Below, in pieces: positions 5,407 to 12,873 of a stretch of 14,087 nt of DNA. The notes under the pieces were generated by a model. It was not told the DNA's origin, searched no databases, and was given only the letters and a program-made list of their open reading frames with translations. Within the stretch, counting starts at the first letter, position 1. Every line of letters begins with the position of its first letter. The stretch is taken from the UHGV virus genome UHGV-1356053; one strand, written 5' to 3'. The stretch is from a virus. A program made the translations under genes and the position numbers.

Positions 5407-5754
5407 GTGGAAGAAGAAATCTTCACTCGTGAAGAAGCTGCGTCGTATCTGAAGGTAGACAAAGGCACTATCACACAGTGGATACGAAGTGGACGACTTC
5501 AGGCCGCAAAGATAAATCCAGATAAACCTAAAAGTCCATATCGCATTTGCAAGTCAGACTGCATTGCGGCGCTTAAGTCTGTGAGACACAATAGCGCGGT
5601 GAATGCGGTTGATGTGCAGGAGGTTAAAGCATGTCAATCAAACTACGCGGTGGCACGTGGCACTGCGATTTCGTCGCGCCAGATGGATCAAGAGTTAGAC
5701 GCTCTCTTGAAACATCGGACAAAAGGCAAGCGCAAGAACTTCACGATCGTCTGA
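5407..5754 (+). CDS. xis: Excisionase (helix-turn-helix Xis family), 115 aa
   Basis: GTG 5407 with GGAGA 6 nt upstream is the best-supported start (the track's ATG 5335 has no RBS); FTREEAASYLKVDKGTITQWIRSGRLQAAKI is an excisionase-type HTH; 3' end overlaps the int start by 124 nt in another frame. Confidence 0.65.
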   Translation: MEEEIFTREEAASYLKVDKGTITQWIRSGRLQAAKINPDKPKSPYRICKSDCIAALKSVRHNSAVNAVDVQEVKACQSNYAVARGTAISSRQMDQELDALLKHRTKGKRKNFTIV

Positions 5755-6791
5755 AAGCAGAAGCGTGGAGAGTAAAAAATCTCGGGGAATCACCGAAAAA
5801 GCTATTCAAGGAAGCCTGCATACGGTGGCTGCGTGAGAAATCGGATAAGAAGTCCATTGATGATGACAAGAGCATTATATCGTTCTGGATGTTGCACTTC
5901 AGAGAAGCCATTCTCTCTGACATAACAACAGAAAAAATAATGGAGGCGGTAGACGGGATGGAAAACCGCCGCCATCGCCTGAACTGGGAGATGAGCCGGG
6001 ACAGGTGTTTGCGACTTGGCAATCCGGTGCCGGAGTATAAACCAAAGCTGGCAAGCAAAGGAACGAAGACGAGGCATCTGGCAATACTTCGCGCCATTCT
6101 CAATATGGCTGTTGAATGGGGATGGCTTGACAGGGCACCCAAAATATCAACACCACGCGTTAAGAATGGACGCATCAGATGGCTTACAGAGGAGGAATCG
6201 AAGCGCCTGTTTGCAGAAATTGCTCCTCACTTCTTCCCTGTGGTCATGTTTGCAATCACGACAGGCCTTCGCCGTTCCAACGTTACAGACCTTGAGTGGT
6301 CACAGGTCGATCTGGATAAGAAAATGGCATGGATGCACCCTGATGAAACAAAAGCTGGCAATGCGATCGGAGTTCCTCTTAACGAAACCGCATGCCAGAT
6401 ATTAAGAAAACAGCAGGGGCTCCATAAGAGATGGGTATTTGTCCACACCAAACCTGCCTACCGAAGCGACGGAACAAAAACAGCAGCGGTAAGGAAGATG
6501 AGAACCGACAGCAACAAGGCATGGAAGGGAGCGTTAAAGCGGGCAGGCATTAGCAACTTCCGCTTCCATGACCTGAGGCATACCTGGGCAAGCTGGCTGG
6601 TTCAGTCCGGTGTCTCTCTTCTTGCACTTAAAGAGATGGGAGGATGGGAAACTCTCGAAATGGTTCAAAGATACGCCCACCTTTCAGCCGGGCATCTCAC
6701 CGAGCACGCGAGCAAAATCGATGCGATTATAAGTCGCAATGGCACAAATACGGCACAAGAGGAGAACGTAGTTTACTTAAATGTGAGGTAA
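5631..6791 (+). CDS. int: Tyrosine integrase, P22 Int type (386 aa)
   Basis: AGGAGG upstream of ATG 5631; resembles P22 Int throughout as recalled (KRQAQELHDRLKAEAWRV, TGLRRSN, FRFHDLRHTWASWLVQ, GGWE..EMVQRYAHL with the catalytic R..HxxR..Y pattern); ends 15 bp from the att core. Confidence 0.97.
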   Translation: MSIKLRGGTWHCDFVAPDGSRVRRSLETSDKRQAQELHDRLKAEAWRVKNLGESPKKLFKEACIRWLREKSDKKSIDDDKSIISFWMLHFREAILSDITTEKIMEAVDGMENRRHRLNWEMSRDRCLRLGNPVPEYKPKLASKGTKTRHLAILRAILNMAVEWGWLDRAPKISTPRVKNGRIRWLTEEESKRLFAEIAPHFFPVVMFAITTGLRRSNVTDLEWSQVDLDKKMAWMHPDETKAGNAIGVPLNETACQILRKQQGLHKRWVFVHTKPAYRSDGTKTAAVRKMRTDSNKAWKGALKRAGISNFRFHDLRHTWASWLVQSGVSLLALKEMGGWETLEMVQRYAHLSAGHLTEHASKIDAIISRNGTNTAQEENVVYLNVR

Positions 6792-6805
6792 CTTATTGAT
6801 TTAAA

Positions 6806-6851
6806 TGGTGCCGATAATAGGAGTCGAACCTACGACCTTCGCATTACGAAT
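6806..6851 (-). other. attP core: 46-bp copy of the 3' part of tRNA-Thr(CGU) (thrW-type target); not a complete tRNA gene
   Basis: Minus strand reads ATTCGTAATGCGAAGGTCGTAGGTTCGACTCCTATTATCGGCACCA: anticodon-loop 3' half, T-arm GGTTCGACTCC, acceptor 3' strand and CCA. The sequence 5' of it (GGTGCTACAG) does not continue the tRNA, so only the att-core part is present. Confidence 0.85.
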
Positions 6852-6910
6852 CTGTAGCACCAATCATAACTATCTGTTTTAGCAAGCATTAACCGCATTC
6901 ACCAAGCAAT

Positions 6911-7046
6911 AGTTGATGGCACAAACAGAAAGTTGATGCATGATGTTGTCATGTGTATGTCACAAATACGGCACAACGATCTTCAAACATGTAGCCACTC
7001 AGCATAGAAGAGCACAAAGCCTTGCAATCCAGTGCAAAGCTTTGTG
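6911..7046. repeat. Short repeats in the attP arm; candidate arm-type Int/IHF sites and a hairpin
   Basis: AGTTGATG twice (6911-6918, 6931-6938); sCACAA(A/C) four times (6918-6927, 6959-6969, 6970-6979, 7010-7020); inverted repeat CACAAAGC (7013-7020) / GCTTTGTG (7039-7046) followed by T-rich sequence. Confidence 0.4.
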
Positions 7047-7082
7047 TGTCTCAGTTTTGTTTCATCGGTAATTATGTGTTCG

Positions 7083-7382
7083 CTACGATGCAAGAATCCA
7101 TACCAATAAGCATCCGATAATTGGGAAAGAAAAATCCAACAGACTTCCCACATCCCACACGCGTGGATCAAAACCTCCCCACCACGGCATGTTGATGCGT
7201 TTCCCTTTCCCAAACTTTTCTATCCAGCGATATTCTGCCTGGGTGTGTTCACGCGCAATGAAGAACGTACAACCGGCTATCGCACCGTAAGCCCAGTTTC
7301 CGGTAGAAAGGCCAACCAGTACCTGAGCCGCAAAAGCGCAAAGCGAGTGAAGAAATGGAGTGACATCAATGCTCTTAATCAT
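7083..7382 (-). CDS. Hypothetical small membrane protein (99 aa), translationally coupled to the tailspike
   Basis: Its ATG (7382-7380) overlaps the tailspike stop (ATGA); hydrophobic segments [30 protein letters not shown] and [16 protein letters not shown]; occupies the tailspike-to-attP slot where P22 and Sf6 carry gtrABC or oac. Confidence 0.65.
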
Positions 7383-9582: not shown

Positions 9583-9834
9583 ATGGGAAGAGATGACCCG
9601 CAATTTAATCTGCGGCTACCTTACGAATTAAAGGAAAAACTAAAACAGCGAGCCAAATCCAATGGCCGCTCTCTTAATTCAGAATTAGTTCAGATAGTGA
9701 CTGATGCTGTATCAAAGCCATCCAAAATTTCAGGCTATCGAGACGATGCGGAACGCATCGCTGATGAGCAGTCAGAGCTTGTTAAGAAGATGGTGTTTGA
9801 TACGCTGAAGGATTTGTACAAAAAACCCACCTGA
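9583..9834 (+). CDS. mnt: Mnt-type ribbon-helix-helix repressor (83 aa)
   Basis: MGRDDPQFNLRLPYELKEKLKQRAKSNGRSLNSELVQIVTDAVSKPSKISGYRDDAERIADEQSELVKKMVFDTLKDLYKKPT matches P22 Mnt along its whole length as recalled, including the C-terminal ADEQSELVKKMVFDTLKDLYKK. Confidence 0.93.
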   Translation: MGRDDPQFNLRLPYELKEKLKQRAKSNGRSLNSELVQIVTDAVSKPSKISGYRDDAERIADEQSELVKKMVFDTLKDLYKKPT

Positions 9835-9850
9835 AGGTGGGTTAATTTTT
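9824..9850 (+). terminator. Rho-independent terminator of mnt
   Basis: AACCCACC (9824-9831), loop TGAA, GGTGGGTT (9836-9843), then AATTTTT; the mnt stop codon lies in the loop. Confidence 0.75.
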
Positions 9851-9868
9851 GCATTTACCTGGGCCATA

Positions 9869-9897
9869 TTGACTACTTATAAAATGAGATCAATATT
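9869..9897 (+). promoter_or_regulatory. Candidate sigma70 promoter for the small downstream gene
   Basis: TTGACT (9869-9874), 16-17 nt spacer, CAATAT/AATATT (9891-9897); about 35 nt upstream of the RBS at 9925. Confidence 0.35.
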
Positions 9898-9933
9898 TAA
9901 TCGCCCAATAACGGGTGTATGTTGAGGTATATC

Positions 9934-10113
9934 ATGGCGAAAAAACCAGGTGAAAACACAGGAAAAAACGGCGGAATATACCAAGAAGTTGGCCCACGCG
10001 GCGGTAAGAAAGACAATTTTGCAACCGTCAAGGACAACGAAAGGCTTCCACCAACAACAAAGCCAGGTCATGGCTGGGTATTGGATAAGCGAACTCCAGA
10101 CAGCAAAAAGTAA
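9934..10113 (+). CDS. Small Gly/Lys-rich hypothetical protein (59 aa), tentatively YjzC-like
   Basis: ATG 9934 with GAGGT 5 nt upstream; MAKKPGENTGKNGGIYQEVGPRGGKKDNFATVKDNERLPPTTKPGHGWVL...; flanked by its own promoter candidate and a terminator. Confidence 0.6.
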   Translation: MAKKPGENTGKNGGIYQEVGPRGGKKDNFATVKDNERLPPTTKPGHGWVLDKRTPDSKK

Positions 10114-10118
10114 TAATC

Positions 10119-10141
10119 AAGCCGGGTCACTCCGGCTTTTT
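10119..10141. terminator. Bidirectional intrinsic terminator between convergent genes
   Basis: AAGCCGG (10119-10125), loop GTCACT, CCGGCTT (10132-10138), then TTTT; the stop codon of the minus-strand HExxH gene (10127-10129) lies within the hairpin. Confidence 0.7.
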
Positions 10142-10492
10142 GATATGTCGCTCGCAGAACTCAACAAGCCTGCTCATTAAGTAGCAGTAAGTCTCGTTGG
10201 CTCTTCCTGGTTCAACATCAACACCTACCCTTGAGCAGATATCGAATGCCATGTGAGCGCACTCATGGGCAATAGTAGATAGTTTGCCATTGAACACGCC
10301 TATCACATGCAAAACACCATTCTCGCTACTCATTGTATGAGACGCTCCGTTGGCGTCCGAGTCATGCACGTCAACGCCAAGTTTTTGATGCAGGCGTTGC
10401 CATTCTGGAAAGTCTCTACAAAACACAATTGTACCGCTCTCAAAGAGCGGAACGAGCATCTTTGGTACGTTTCCAATGTTAACTTTTTTCAT
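10127..10492 (-). CDS. Small soluble HExxH-motif protein (putative minimal Zn-metallopeptidase-like), 121 aa
   Basis: ATG 10492-10490 with AGGA upstream; IAHECAHMAFD (HExxH) followed by Glu residues 16-22 positions downstream (VDVE, NET), a gluzincin-like arrangement; no hydrophobic segments. Confidence 0.7.
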   Translation of the reverse strand: MKKVNIGNVPKMLVPLFESGTIVFCRDFPEWQRLHQKLGVDVHDSDANGASHTMSSENGVLHVIGVFNGKLSTIAHECAHMAFDICSRVGVDVEPGRANETYCYLMSRLVEFCERHIKKPE

Positions 10493-10526
10493 GGTATCCT
10501 GCGCAAAACTAAGGAGAGTTAATTAT

Positions 10527-11012
10527 ATGAAAAAATCACTGTTAATTATCCCGCTTCTGCTGGCTGGGTGCGCAAAAGTAAGCGACTATCAGGCAAGTTG
10601 CGAGCAACGCTATCCAAAGCTTAGCGATATGGCTAATTGCCTTGATGCCAGCTTGAAGAACGACTCTCGCATGGCATCAGCACCAACACCTAAGCTGTAT
10701 GTCCTTGCTGCGAAGATGCTCGGGCAAGGTGTCGATGAAGGCAAGATAAGTGACACACAGGCAAGACTTGAACTTCAGAATCTTTATGTTCAATTACAAA
10801 GCCAAGAACAAGCACAACAAATAGCACAAAGCCAAGCATTCCAGCAGGCTTTATTGAATTATCAGGCTGTAAACACAATGCAAGCGATCGAGCAAAAAGC
10901 GCGCCAGCCTGTTATAACTCAACCTTACCCAACACGCGTTGACACATATACAAACTGCAATTCAGGATTTGGAAACACGGTAACATGCAACAGTAGCAGT
11001 AATATCAGATAG
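10527..11012 (+). CDS. Lipoprotein with Gln-rich coiled-coil region (161 aa)
   Basis: ATG 10527 with AAGGAG 10 nt upstream; signal peptide MKKSLLIIPLLLAGC with lipobox LAG-C, Ala at +2; four further Cys in two pairs; QSQEQAQQIAQSQAFQQALLNYQAV coiled-coil-like. Confidence 0.8.
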   Translation: MKKSLLIIPLLLAGCAKVSDYQASCEQRYPKLSDMANCLDASLKNDSRMASAPTPKLYVLAAKMLGQGVDEGKISDTQARLELQNLYVQLQSQEQAQQIAQSQAFQQALLNYQAVNTMQAIEQKARQPVITQPYPTRVDTYTNCNSGFGNTVTCNSSSNIR

Positions 11013-11025
11013 TTATATCTTATTT

Positions 11026-12873
11026 TTATTGCTGTTCTGCTGTAATTTGGCTTGAAAGTATAGGGCGTATCGCATTTGCAGCATTATTTAGCGCTCTTTC
11101 ATAGGCTGGTGTTCCTGCTTTGGTGTTTGCCAAACGTAAGAGAGCATTCCTTGCTGCTTTTGACTCATACAAGCGCATCATTGCACCGAAACCAGCCTCA
11201 AGCCCCATTGATACGCCAAGAGTCGCAGTTGCGCCAATCGTCCTTATCCTGTTGGCTTGCGATTGCCCCGTCTGAGTTACTACATTTGCGGTGTCTGACC
11301 TTGCTGTTTGCTGTAGAACTTCATGAAGAGAATCAAGCTCTTTCATGTGCTTTCCAGAAAAAATAGTGTTGTAAATTTCACCGCCTGACTGAGATTTCAG
11401 CTTATTAACTTCAGTGATGAACTTGGCTGGAGAGTCACCGGCCTTTTCCGCTATTTTGCTGACATAAGCTGCACGCATAGCATCTTTCCCTTTATTATCC
11501 AATGCGCTCCAGATTCGTTTCACGTCAGATGGTTTTCTGCTTAATACAACGGTATTTATAAGTTCAGGACTGGCTTCACTGCTTGCCTTGTTGAGCTTGT
11601 TAGCAATGTTTTTATTAAGCACCTTATTATAAACGTTTGCATAATCGGAATTTGCTTTAAGGTATTTTGCTGCGTCTGATGCACCGAGGTTTTTTGCAAC
11701 TGCGTTACGAAGATCTTTTGACATTGCATTCTCTACCATATTGGTAGCTGCTTTTGCCTGGTTTGGGAAGACCATAGCATCTCCCTGAACATTAGATCTA
11801 AATGCTGTTCTGTGCTGACGCAAGAGATCAAACGTAACATCCAAATCAGTTGCAGGGTTTGCTAATTCTTCACGTAGGTTACGCAAGGATGTAAGCAGGC
11901 TTTGATTGGCAGACGTCCCAAGCCGTTCCTGTCTTGCGATCGCTGTATTCAGAGCATTCATGGTATTTGTGGTATCAACTGCGGCATTACCCATTTTATT
12001 GGTGACGTCATTGATAACAGCGCCAGCGGCATCCTTCCGCCCCCTTAACGTGGTGGTAAGAGATTTCACCACATCATCAGGGTTGTACTCACCAAAACGG
12101 TCAAAATAATTACTTACCAGCTTACTACGCGTTGCATATTGCTCCGCTCGCTTTGAGCCTGTCCCGAGCAAAGCCCCCTCGGCATCCTGAGTTAGGCCGC
12201 GAGTGAAAGCATTTTTCGGCGGGATAACATCAGATGTCATTGGTGTCACGCCCATCGATTCTGATGTGGCAATTTTCTTCGCCACTTCTGGCGCAATATC
12301 ACCTTTTATAGCCGTTATTCCACGCCCTATTCCCTTTGCTGCTGCGGAAAGAACCCCCTGAGCGGCAAGGTTAACTCCGGCATTTTTAGCTGCATTTTGT
12401 GCGAAATCGCCTTTCTGATTTGCGGCCTCTGCCAGTGATCCAATAGCCATGCTTCCTGCCGTTCCAACTCCTGGAACTAAATACCCGCCAATTGTTTCTC
12501 CAGCTTGCGCATAAGGGTCTGTTGGTCGATCGACTGGACGATAGACATCGTCCAAAACCTTGGGGCCACCAAGCCCCTGGCTGATTGCATTAATCAGACT
12601 TGCGCCGCCCTGCAATACGTCAAATGGTATGTTTACCAGACCACGACCAGCCTGTTCCGCAATTTGCCCTGCACTTTGACCACCAGTGAGCCAATCGCCA
12701 GCTTGTTGCATCAATGATGGTTCTTCCCGTGTTGGTGCATTATTGGCCTGATTAACTGTTTGTTGCTGAACAGCCTGACCAGCAAAATACTCATCAATGG
12801 CGGTGCCAATATCTTCGGTGCTCGTACCATCAGGAAAGGTAAATATCTTACCGTTTGCAGTTACTTTCATCAT
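11026..12873 (-). CDS. Ejection (DNA-transfer) protein, P22 gp16-like by size and position (615 aa)
   Basis: Ala/Gly/Gln-rich soluble protein of the size expected for gp16, immediately upstream (in late-operon direction) of the sieA/immI-position island and tailspike. The second ATG (12870) has the better-spaced GGTGG RBS. Confidence 0.8.

What the first reader, a model, noticed from the sequence alone, without database searches (positions are those of the whole stretch)
10527..11012. Phage-encoded lipoprotein, candidate entry-exclusion factor
It has a clear lipobox (LLAGC) with Ala at +2, which by the +2 rule suggests outer-membrane sorting, two Cys pairs consistent with periplasmic disulfides, and a Gln-rich coiled-coil. 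It is oriented opposite to the late operon, as lysogen-expressed genes often are. Phage lipoproteins of this kind (Llp of T5, Cor of phi80/N15) block receptors or DNA entry.
Basis: partly seen in the sequence, partly recalled or inferred. Interest (0 to 1): 0.6.

Follow-up and report, generated by a model that had tools for sequence, protein, structure and literature searches.

The report
Prophage lipoprotein in the sieA slot
A P22-like prophage carries a well-conserved gene of untested function for an outer-membrane-type lipoprotein, placed exactly where phage P22 keeps its superinfection-exclusion gene sieA, which makes it a good and easily testable candidate for a new way of blocking entry of related phages.

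Summary
Window 10527-11012 (+) encodes a 161-aa protein with a textbook lipoprotein signal (MKKSLLIIPLLLAG|C, Ala at +2), four further Cys in two conserved pairs and a Gln-rich helix. It is transcribed opposite to the late operon. A canonical coiled coil is not supported.

The gene is real. It gives a full-length match to PHROG 6067 (function unknown). It occurs in 186 of 5,426 complete E. coli genomes, with dN/dS 0.05 over 55 alleles.

The window is a P22-like (Lederbergvirus) genome. The gene lies between gene 16 (DNA-transfer protein) and mnt, in the "ant moron". It is an exact cassette replacement of sieA: 78 of 79 nt upstream, through the annotated sieA promoter and the Shine-Dalgarno, match P22, and homology ends there. 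HK620 hkcB sits at the same junction. In 31 of 80 related viral contigs the gene follows mnt directly on the same strand. sieA or hkcB co-occurs in 0 of 80.

It has no sequence relation to Cor, Llp, SieA or Bor, and a confident AlphaFold model (pLDDT 91) has no fold match.

Best reading, inferred and not shown: a lysogen-expressed, periplasm-facing outer-membrane lipoprotein that blocks DNA delivery by P22-like phages. Exclusion itself is untested.

The parts
10438..10516 (+). Upstream region shared with P22 sieA. It holds the equivalent of the annotated P22 sieA promoter (10462-10492), a possible extended -10 TGGTATCCT (10492-10500) and the Shine-Dalgarno AAGGAG (10511-10516).
   Evidence: 78 of 79 nt match the P22 sequence upstream of sieA, and homology stops at the Shine-Dalgarno. 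The promoter feature is annotated in BK000583. Leavitt et al. found that 85 bp upstream plus sieA suffices for exclusion (PMC10883804). The -10 reading is my inspection only; the consensus scan found no promoter here.
10527..10571 (+). Lipoprotein signal peptide, residues 1-15: MKK, hydrophobic core, lipobox LAGC. Cys15 is the predicted lipidated residue.
   Evidence: Read directly from the sequence. The PROSITE-type rule is met in 29 of 29 close relatives.
10572..10826 (+). N-terminal helical domain of the mature protein, residues 16-100, with Ala16 at +2 and the invariant pair C25/C38.
   Evidence: AlphaFold2 pLDDT 94-98 over residues 21-100; helices 18-28, 32-45, 53-70 and 76 onward. Q22, C25, C38 and A79 are invariant in 52 relatives. 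dN/dS 0.07.
10776..10901 (+). Gln-rich part of the long helix, residues 84-125. Its distal half projects from the bundle. This stretch is variable or absent in distant relatives.
   Evidence: 14 of 42 residues are Gln and the heptad pattern is weak. One helix spans 76-125. The linker length varies in alignment A2.
10911..11009 (+). C-terminal module, residues 129-161: a Pro-rich linker plus a beta-hairpin bracketed by C144 and C154. It behaves as a recombinationally swapped unit.
   Evidence: Strands 139-146 and 152-159. dN/dS 0.007 within the E. coli clade. Pairs of homologues are 88-96% identical over residues 16-128 but 18-33% over 129-161. The motif C-x-G-x-C lies within 4 residues of the C-terminus in 36 of 52 relatives.
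11010..11012 (+). Stop codon, which is also the 3' junction of the cassette.
   Evidence: Downstream sequence classes diverge from the stop codon itself, TAG versus TAA. No intrinsic terminator was found on the + strand.
11026..12873 (-). Gene 16 homologue (DNA-transfer/ejection protein), convergent with the lipoprotein gene and 13 bp from it.
   Evidence: phrog_770 at E 2e-279. 74% protein identity to P22 gp16.
10127..10492 (-). hkcC-like gene of unknown function, divergent from the lipoprotein gene. Its 5' end overlaps the sieA-promoter equivalent.
   Evidence: 99% identical to hkcC of P22 and HK620. phrog_1365.
9583..9834 (+). mnt (Arc/Mnt-family repressor), on the same strand as the lipoprotein gene. 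A bidirectional terminator follows at 9824-9843.
   Evidence: Pfam Arc and Repressor_Mnt. Terminator scan.

Best explanation
The gene is a moron cassette in the 'ant moron' of a P22-like temperate phage. It is one of several alternative envelope-protein genes (sieA, hkcB, this one, or nothing) placed behind the same junction between gene 16 and mnt.

Shown by sequence:
- The product has a Sec/LspA-type lipoprotein signal with no inner-membrane retention residue.
- It has two conserved Cys pairs.
- The confident model shows a small helical domain next to the lipid anchor, a long helix, a Pro-rich linker and a C-terminal hairpin bracketed by two Cys.

Inferred:
- The gene is transcribed in the lysogen. 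In this window that would be from the sieA-type promoter region. In other prophages it would be together with mnt.
- The protein is lipidated, sorted by Lol to the inner leaflet of the outer membrane, and oxidised by DsbA.
- From there it projects its C-terminal hairpin into the periplasm.
- It interferes with DNA delivery by superinfecting P22-like phages. It could do this by binding a conserved host envelope component that the phage needs, as Llp and Cor do. It could instead intercept the ejected gp7/gp20/gp16 conduit on the outer-membrane side, as Ltp does to the tape-measure protein and as SieA does at the inner membrane.
- The swapped C-terminal module would be the target-binding part.
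For: 1. Position. The window is collinear with P22. Window 9583-10516 is 91.8% identical to the P22 region from mnt to the sieA upstream sequence. Identity runs through the annotated sieA promoter to the Shine-Dalgarno and ends 10 nt before the ATG. HK620 hkcB starts at the same junction, and ST160 has no annotated gene there.

2. sieA precedent. [quoted passage not shown] It is found in only 22 of 66 such phages and always between genes 16 and 9. It works with just 85 bp of upstream DNA (PMC10883804).

3. A second precedent at this position. In prophage BTP1 the opposite-strand transcript at the gene 16/tailspike junction (STnc6030) is expressed in lysogens and excludes BTP1 (PMC7067206).

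4. All three known occupants are envelope proteins. SieA is polytopic, HkcB has an N-terminal transmembrane segment plus a coiled coil, and this one is a lipoprotein.

5. Exclusivity. 0 of 80 viral contigs carrying the gene also carry sieA or hkcB, and 77 of 80 have gene 16 immediately downstream.

6. Link to a prophage-expressed gene. In 31 of 80 contigs, in E. coli O26:H11 11368 and in Proteus phage Brookers the gene follows mnt on the same strand, with a gap of about 70 or 17 nt.

7. Synteny. The gene-16 to mnt/tailspike position is kept down to 49-61% protein identity in Proteus, Providencia and Tatumella.

8. Functional protein. dN/dS is 0.053 overall and 0.007 in the C-terminal hairpin.

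9. Modular C-terminus, exchanged by recombination.
Against: No exclusion phenotype or expression data exist for this family; my literature searches found none.

The promoter argument is by sequence identity only. The consensus scan did not call a promoter here. The upstream region falls into at least six classes among carriers, so there is no single conserved promoter.

The ant moron also holds genes with no known exclusion role (hkcC, orf59a, mnt/arc/ant), so position alone is not function (PMC2629481).

There is no sign of diversifying selection within the E. coli clade. The same allele sits with three very different gene-16 types, which argues against a tight co-evolving interaction with gp16.

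A distant relative lies in a housekeeping chromosomal neighbourhood (uvrC, UDG, EarP, biotin-synthesis-type genes). The wider family may therefore have a general envelope role.

There is no hit in PADLOC defence models.
Confidence: 0.5

Rival explanations
1. It is a lysogenic-conversion lipoprotein that benefits the host in ways unrelated to phage entry, such as serum or complement resistance, envelope-stress tolerance or colonisation. Lambda Bor and Iss work this way.
For: The gene is prophage-borne, probably lysogen-expressed and predicted to go to the outer membrane, which is the same anatomy as Bor. It is strongly conserved without diversifying selection. It is independent of gene-16 and tailspike type. 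Distant relatives occur in non-phage chromosomal contexts. It is frequent in clinical and animal E. coli, including the O26:H11 and ST131 lineages.
Against: There is no similarity to Bor/Iss or any Pfam family. The close family (at least 50% identity) was found only in P22-like prophages, at the slot of the known exclusion gene, and never together with sieA. A general fitness factor would be expected to spread to other prophage types and positions.
Confidence: 0.25
2. The protein serves the phage's own cycle at induction rather than the lysogen. It might stop released progeny from injecting into already-infected or lysing cells and debris, or it might adjust the envelope for lysis or egress.
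For: sieA is up-regulated during prophage induction (PMC10883804). Self-protection of progeny by exclusion systems is an emerging idea (cited in PMC13622650). The gene's position would allow expression in both states.
Against: The gene is opposite to the late operon and outside the lysis cassette. It has no resemblance to spanins, being 146 aa mature and helical rather than a short Pro-rich Rz1 type. This is really a sub-case of exclusion and not a distinct mechanism.
Confidence: 0.12
3. The active product is partly or mainly the RNA. With no terminator after the stop codon, the transcript runs antisense into the 3' end of gene 16 and interferes with late mRNA of incoming phages that share that sequence, as STnc6030 does in BTP1.
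For: No intrinsic terminator was found on the + strand after 11012, and the gene is convergent with gene 16 with a 13-bp gap. There is a BTP1 precedent at the equivalent position (PMC7067206).
Against: Strong purifying selection on the protein sequence (dN/dS 0.05), conserved lipobox and Cys pairs, and conservation of the protein but not the DNA across genera show that the protein is the selected product. The same cassette is joined to three unrelated gene-16 3' ends, so any antisense effect would be incidental.
Confidence: 0.05
4. It is a decaying or hitch-hiking ORF with no function.
For: Some truncated or fused copies exist (P0081, P0082, P0089).
Against: dN/dS is 0.053 over 55 alleles at pS 0.155. 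Architecture is conserved down to 25% identity. A 52-sequence alignment gives an AlphaFold model with pLDDT 91.
Confidence: 0.02

Closest known systems
SieA of phage P22 (superinfection exclusion A)
   Same: It has the same genomic slot (between genes 16 and 9/mnt), the same orientation and the same upstream promoter and Shine-Dalgarno region, 78 of 79 nt. Both are about 160-aa envelope proteins. The two never occur together (0 of 80). Both are confined to P22-like prophages of Enterobacterales.
   Different: There is no sequence similarity. SieA is a polytopic inner-membrane protein with a cytoplasmic FxRYPxEAxxFNK motif. This protein is a soluble-domain lipoprotein predicted to go to the outer membrane. 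Its function is untested.
Cor (phi80, N15, HK022) and Llp (T5): outer-membrane lipoproteins that block FhuA-dependent phages
   Same: All are small phage-encoded outer-membrane lipoproteins carried as morons, with disulfide-containing mature domains. The proposed logic, inactivating an entry step from the periplasmic side, is the same.
   Different: Similarity to Cor is limited to 25 signal-peptide and lipobox columns. No Cor or Llp PHROG hit was found. The mature part is about twice as long and mainly helical. The carrier is a podophage that uses O-antigen, not FhuA.
Ltp of Streptococcus phage TP-J34: lipoprotein that blocks DNA injection by binding the tape-measure protein
   Same: Both are prophage lipoproteins with helical domains. 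Ltp is a plausible analogue for intercepting ejected conduit proteins outside the cytoplasmic membrane.
   Different: Ltp is from a Gram-positive host, belongs to an unrelated family (no Pfam or PDB sequence hit) and has a different target class. The resemblance is by analogy only.
HkcB of HK620 and epsilon34 (function unknown)
   Same: It occupies the same cassette position, starting right after the same Shine-Dalgarno junction. It is also membrane-anchored and partly coiled or helical. It has a similar frequency in E. coli, 117 versus 186 of 5,426 genomes.
   Different: HkcB has an N-terminal transmembrane anchor instead of a lipobox, and the sequence is unrelated.
STnc6030 antisense RNA of prophage BTP1
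   Same: It is an opposite-strand, lysogen-expressed element at the gene 16/tailspike junction of a P22-like prophage, and it mediates exclusion.
   Different: It is a non-coding RNA, whereas here a protein is under strong purifying selection.
PHROG 6067
   Same: Full-length match, residues 1-161 of a 161-position profile, E 2.9e-109. All 52 sampled relatives match it.
   Different: The PHROG carries no function or category, so membership only names the family.

Membership tests
Bacterial lipoprotein (Lgt/LspA/Lnt substrate; PROSITE PS51257) | N-terminal basic residues, a hydrophobic core, and the lipobox [LVI][ASTVI][GAS]-C with the Cys at position 15-35 | tested here: met
   MKKSLLIIPLLLAG-C15. 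The rule is met in 29 of 29 close and 46 of 52 distant relatives.
Bacterial lipoprotein (Lgt/LspA/Lnt substrate; PROSITE PS51257) | Actual lipid modification and globomycin-sensitive processing | not testable with these tools
   Needs palmitate labelling, globomycin treatment and a C15A mutant.
Outer-membrane (Lol-sorted) lipoprotein of Enterobacterales | No Asp at +2 (the Lol-avoidance signal) | tested here: met
   +2 is Ala. Across 75 relatives with a lipobox, +2 is A, V, T, S, Q or G and never D. Localisation itself is inferred from the established +2 rule.
P22 SieA family | Sequence homology; polytopic inner-membrane topology; the FxRYPxEAxxFNK motif | tested here: not met
   BLASTP finds no alignment at E<=100. 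The mature protein has no hydrophobic segment. The motif is absent (sequence; family features).
P22 SieA family | Location between gene 16 and gene 9 in a P22-like prophage, behind the sieA promoter region | tested here: met
P22 SieA family | Blocks DNA injection by P22-like phages | not testable with these tools
   Needs plating, K+ efflux and escape-mutant experiments like those in PMC10883804.
Cor superinfection-exclusion lipoproteins (phrog_1119) | Homology of the mature domain | tested here: not met
   There is no phrog_1119 hit at E<=0.01. BLASTP and hhalign against HK022 Cor align only residues 1-24 or 1-26, which are the signal peptide and lipobox.
T5 Llp | Homology to Llp | tested here: not met
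Lambda Bor / Iss serum-resistance lipoproteins | Match to the Bor/Iss Pfam family | tested here: not met
   There are 0 Pfam families at E<=0.1.
Spanin outer-membrane subunit (Rz1-type) or unimolecular spanin | Sits in the lysis cassette, embedded in or next to Rz; has a short Pro-rich mature part or a C-terminal transmembrane segment | tested here: not met
   The gene lies in the ant moron, opposite to the late operon. The mature part is 146 aa and helical, with no C-terminal transmembrane segment. There is no spanin PHROG hit.
Moron (independently acquired, independently expressed gene inserted in a phage operon) | Presence/absence polymorphism between otherwise collinear phages, with sharp junctions | tested here: met
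   The slot holds sieA, hkcB, the lipoprotein or nothing. The 5' junction is at the Shine-Dalgarno and the 3' junction is at the stop codon.
Moron (independently acquired, independently expressed gene inserted in a phage operon) | Own promoter and terminator; deviant base composition | tested here: inconclusive
   The promoter is inferred only by identity to the P22 sieA upstream region. No terminator was found. GC is 0.447 against 0.451 for the window, so composition is not deviant.
PHROG 6067 | Full-length profile match | tested here: met
   E 2.9e-109 over positions 1-161 of 161.

The most novel reading that the evidence does not exclude
This would be the founding member of a structurally new family of periplasm-facing outer-membrane lipoproteins. 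The family would exclude short-tailed P22-like phages on the outer-membrane side of the envelope, a counterpart to inner-membrane SieA. A recombinationally exchangeable, Cys-bracketed C-terminal hairpin would act as the target-binding tip. Distant relatives in other mobile elements and chromosomes of Proteobacteria would form an unrecognised class of envelope-level anti-phage proteins.
Probability: 0.3. Interest if true: 0.7.

Novelty: new variant of a known kind. Interest (0 to 1): 0.5.

Why it matters
Only a third of P22-like phages carry sieA, and what the others keep in that slot is unstudied. In complete E. coli genomes this lipoprotein gene is the commonest of the three occupants I counted: 186 genomes, against 117 for hkcB and 35 for P22-type sieA. 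Carriers include O26:H11 and ST131 strains.

If it blocks entry, it would be the first outer-membrane or periplasmic exclusion factor described for this phage group. It would be a handle on how the gp7/gp20/gp16 conduit crosses the outer membrane and periplasm. It would also be a determinant of phage host range relevant to phage therapy and to prophage spread in pathogenic E. coli.

The experimental system already exists: single-copy expression and P22 hybrids carrying foreign ejection proteins.

If it is not an exclusion factor, it is still a widespread, strongly conserved conversion lipoprotein with a fold that matches nothing solved.

Tried and rejected
Annotation by homology. Pfam, NCBIfam, PADLOC and PDB sequence searches gave nothing for the protein. 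Pfam also gave nothing meaningful for 52 relatives.

Cor relationship. One distant relative touched the Cor PHROG at E 6e-4. Direct comparison showed this to be signal-peptide similarity only, so I rejected it.

Coiled coil.

Linkage to tailspike serotype or gene-16 type. Rejected.

Source name 'GspK' on a Cronobacter homologue. I treated this as a misannotation: the protein is 161 aa, 73% identical to this one, and has no precomputed Pfam domain.

Wide locus retrieval for distant relatives. This failed because the alignments lack a conserved 7-10-residue stretch. Contexts of distant relatives therefore rest on a handful of contigs: phage or mobile-element-like for P0101 and P0114, chromosomal for P0099, island-like for P0144, and uninformative for the others.

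Literature. There is no paper on this family. PMC4969182 (Casjens and Grose 2016) was not available.

Composition. There is no anomaly. No tRNA lies in the window.

Full report
**1. The observation**

The ORF listing gives an ORF at 10476..11012 on the + strand. The biologically sensible start is the ATG at 10527. An AAGGAG Shine-Dalgarno sits 10 nt upstream (10511-10516), and sequence conservation among carriers begins at that Shine-Dalgarno and not further upstream. RefSeq also calls the 161-aa form.

The product begins MKKSLLIIPLLLAG-C15-AKV. This meets a PROSITE PS51257-type lipobox rule. So do 29 of 29 close and 46 of 52 distant relatives, and none has Asp at +2.

After the lipid Cys there are four cysteines:
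- C25 and C38 are invariant in 52 of 52 relatives.
- C144 and C154 are present together in 47 of 52.
- Every relative has an even number of Cys after the lipid Cys.

Residues 84-125 contain 14 Gln in 42 positions. Only 5 of 15 a/d heptad positions are hydrophobic, so I keep 'Gln-rich helix' and drop 'coiled coil'. [quoted passage not shown]

**2. It is a real, selected gene**

- It matches phrog_6067 (unknown function) end to end at E 3e-109.
- It has 90 homologue clusters, all in Enterobacterales.
- It is in 186 of 5,426 complete E. coli genomes, always chromosomal.
- Over 55 distinct alleles from 80 IMG/VR contigs, phage Gally and the window, pS is 0.155, pN is 0.009 and dN/dS is 0.053. The C-terminal 26 residues are the most constrained, at 0.007.

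**3. Where it sits**

The window is a P22-like (Lederbergvirus) genome. In order it holds:
- early-left genes, including a Rad52-type recombinase and Ea22
- xis and int
- a 99-aa membrane protein
- the tailspike
- mnt
- an orf59a-like gene
- hkcC
- the lipoprotein gene
- gene 16, then the start of gene 20

The stretch between genes 16 and 9 is the 'ant moron' of Villafane et al. They describe it as in rapid flux, and in P22 it holds sieA, hkcC, orf59a and mnt/arc/ant (PMC2629481).

Window 9583-10516 is 91.8% identical to P22 from mnt to just upstream of sieA. Anchored at the Shine-Dalgarno, 78 of 79 nt match, including the whole feature annotated as the sieA promoter in BK000583. Homology stops right after AAGGAG. 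P22 continues into sieA, HK620 into hkcB, ST160 into a stretch with no annotated gene, and this window into the lipoprotein gene.

At the 3' end the junction is the stop codon itself, because downstream classes already differ at TAG versus TAA. The gene is therefore an exact cassette alternative to sieA.

**4. What is known about that slot**

[quoted passage not shown] - It works with only 85 bp of upstream DNA.
- Only 22 of 66 sequenced P22-like phages have it, always between genes 16 and 9 (PMC10883804).
- In BTP1, which lacks this moron, an opposite-strand RNA at the gene 16/tailspike junction is expressed in lysogens and excludes BTP1 (PMC7067206).
- HkcB, of unknown function, has an N-terminal transmembrane segment followed by a coiled-coil-like domain. 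All three protein occupants of the slot are thus envelope proteins.

**5. Population evidence**

- In 80 IMG/VR contigs with the gene (97-100% identity), 77 have a gene-16 homologue immediately downstream.
- Those homologues belong to at least three types that are about 34% identical to each other.
- None of the 80 also has sieA or hkcB.
- Tailspikes next to near-identical alleles share only the head-binding N-terminus. There is therefore no serotype linkage.
- Upstream there are at least six sequence classes, most of them joined at ...AAAACTAAGGAGAGTTAA.
- In 31 of 80 contigs the gene follows an mnt-type gene on the same strand with a gap of about 70 nt. E. coli O26:H11 11368 has the same arrangement, and Proteus phage Brookers has a 17-nt gap.
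- mnt is a prophage-expressed maintenance repressor (established P22 biology), so this arrangement again predicts expression in the lysogen.
- The gene-16 to mnt/tailspike position is kept in Proteus, Providencia and Tatumella at 49-61% protein identity.
- In complete E. coli genomes the counts are 186 for the lipoprotein gene, 117 for hkcB, 35 for P22-type sieA and 131 for hkcC.

**6. The protein**

With a 52-sequence diverse alignment, AlphaFold2 gives mean pLDDT 90.9. The model has these elements:
- helices at 18-28, 32-45 and 53-70
- a long helix at 76-125, whose first half closes a small bundle
- a Pro-rich linker at 126-138
- a hairpin at 139-159

C25 and C38 lie on neighbouring helices, and C144 and C154 on the two hairpin strands. 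I could not measure the distances between them.

An HMM search of 1.84 billion representatives finds 240 relatives at E<=1e-3. These are 100-170-aa proteins with the same plan:
- a lipobox
- a helical domain with the two invariant Cys
- a linker of variable length
- a C-terminal T-x-C-x3-G-x3-4-C-x-[ST]-[YR]

Their few readable contexts are mixed. One is next to a terminase gene, one is next to an integrase and DnaB, one is island-like, and one is plainly chromosomal.

Within the close family the last 33 residues are exchanged as a module. Pairs are 88-96% identical over residues 16-128 but only 18-33% identical after that.

**7. Interpretation**

Shown:
- It is a conserved, selected lipoprotein gene.
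- It has an outer-membrane-type signal and paired cysteines.
- It occupies the sieA cassette position of P22-like prophages.
- It shares the sieA upstream region or follows mnt.

Inferred:
- It is expressed in lysogeny.
- The protein sits in the outer membrane facing the periplasm and carries disulfide bonds.
- It acts against DNA delivery by related phages.

I cannot tell whether it would bind a conserved host component (Llp/Cor logic) or the ejected gp7/gp20/gp16 conduit (Ltp/SieA logic). The extreme conservation of the tip, and its independence from gene-16 type, lean slightly towards a conserved target.

I put about 0.5 on exclusion. The main rival is a Bor-like conversion function, at about 0.25. 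The others are a role at induction, an incidental antisense effect of read-through into gene 16 (no terminator found), and no function, which the selection data rule out.

**8. Novelty and verdict**

The family is catalogued (phrog_6067, 'hypothetical protein' or 'lipoprotein') but has no published function that I could find.

As a kind of thing, a prophage moron encoding an envelope lipoprotein that probably excludes phages, it is familiar. As a family, a fold, a target phage group and a position-equivalent alternative to SieA, it is new. It is easy to test. I score interest at 0.5.

Noticed in passing
window 10127-10492 (-): The hkcC-like gene is 99% identical to hkcC of P22 and HK620, function unknown. 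It contains an HExxH string (..IAHECAHMAF..) typical of zinc metallopeptidases, but has no Pfam or NCBIfam hit. Its start codon overlaps the sieA-promoter equivalent.
   Followed up: no
window 7083-7382 (-): A 99-aa protein with hydrophobic segments (phrog_1443, unknown function) lies between the tailspike and int. P22 has gtrABC there, and the O26:H11 11368 prophage has an acyltransferase. It may be another lysogenic-conversion gene.
   Followed up: partly
window 11012-11750 (+): No intrinsic terminator follows the lipoprotein stop codon. Its transcript should run antisense into the 3' end of gene 16, which recalls the exclusion RNA STnc6030 of prophage BTP1 at the same position.
   Followed up: partly
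window 10911-11009 (+); proteins P0008/P0038, P0003/P0030, P0012/P0032: The last 33 residues of the lipoprotein are a recombinationally swapped module with a breakpoint near 'ARQP'. The main variants end in ...SSSNIR or ...SY, and a sub-type of the latter ends ...NSSY in Morganella, Providencia and Proteus.
   Followed up: yes
window 10490-10516 (+) and loci L024-L103: A short junction, CATG(R)TATCCTG..AAAACTAAGGAG, is kept upstream of the gene even where hkcC has been deleted and mnt is the neighbour. It contains a possible extended -10 (TGnTATCCT) and may be the real core promoter of the slot.
   Followed up: partly
window 5631-7382: int lies next to the tailspike end, with only the 99-aa gene and about 290 bp between them. 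This is the phage (circular) arrangement around attP. In E. coli Ecol_881, whose lipoprotein gene is 100% identical, the tailspike end abuts host dacD. No tRNA gene is present in the window.
   Followed up: partly
proteins P0081, P0082, P0089, P0023: Truncated or fused copies of the gene exist, for example a 167-aa 'recombinase' whose N-terminal part (residues 13-63) matches the first 53 positions of the lipoprotein. One full-length homologue in Cronobacter is labelled GspK, which looks like a misannotation.
   Followed up: no
L003 2376-2705 (HK620 hkcB): HkcB, the other alternative occupant of the slot, is predicted to be a single-pass membrane protein with a coiled-coil-like domain. It is present in 117 of 5,426 E. 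coli genomes and is equally uncharacterised, so it is a second candidate exclusion gene.
   Followed up: partly
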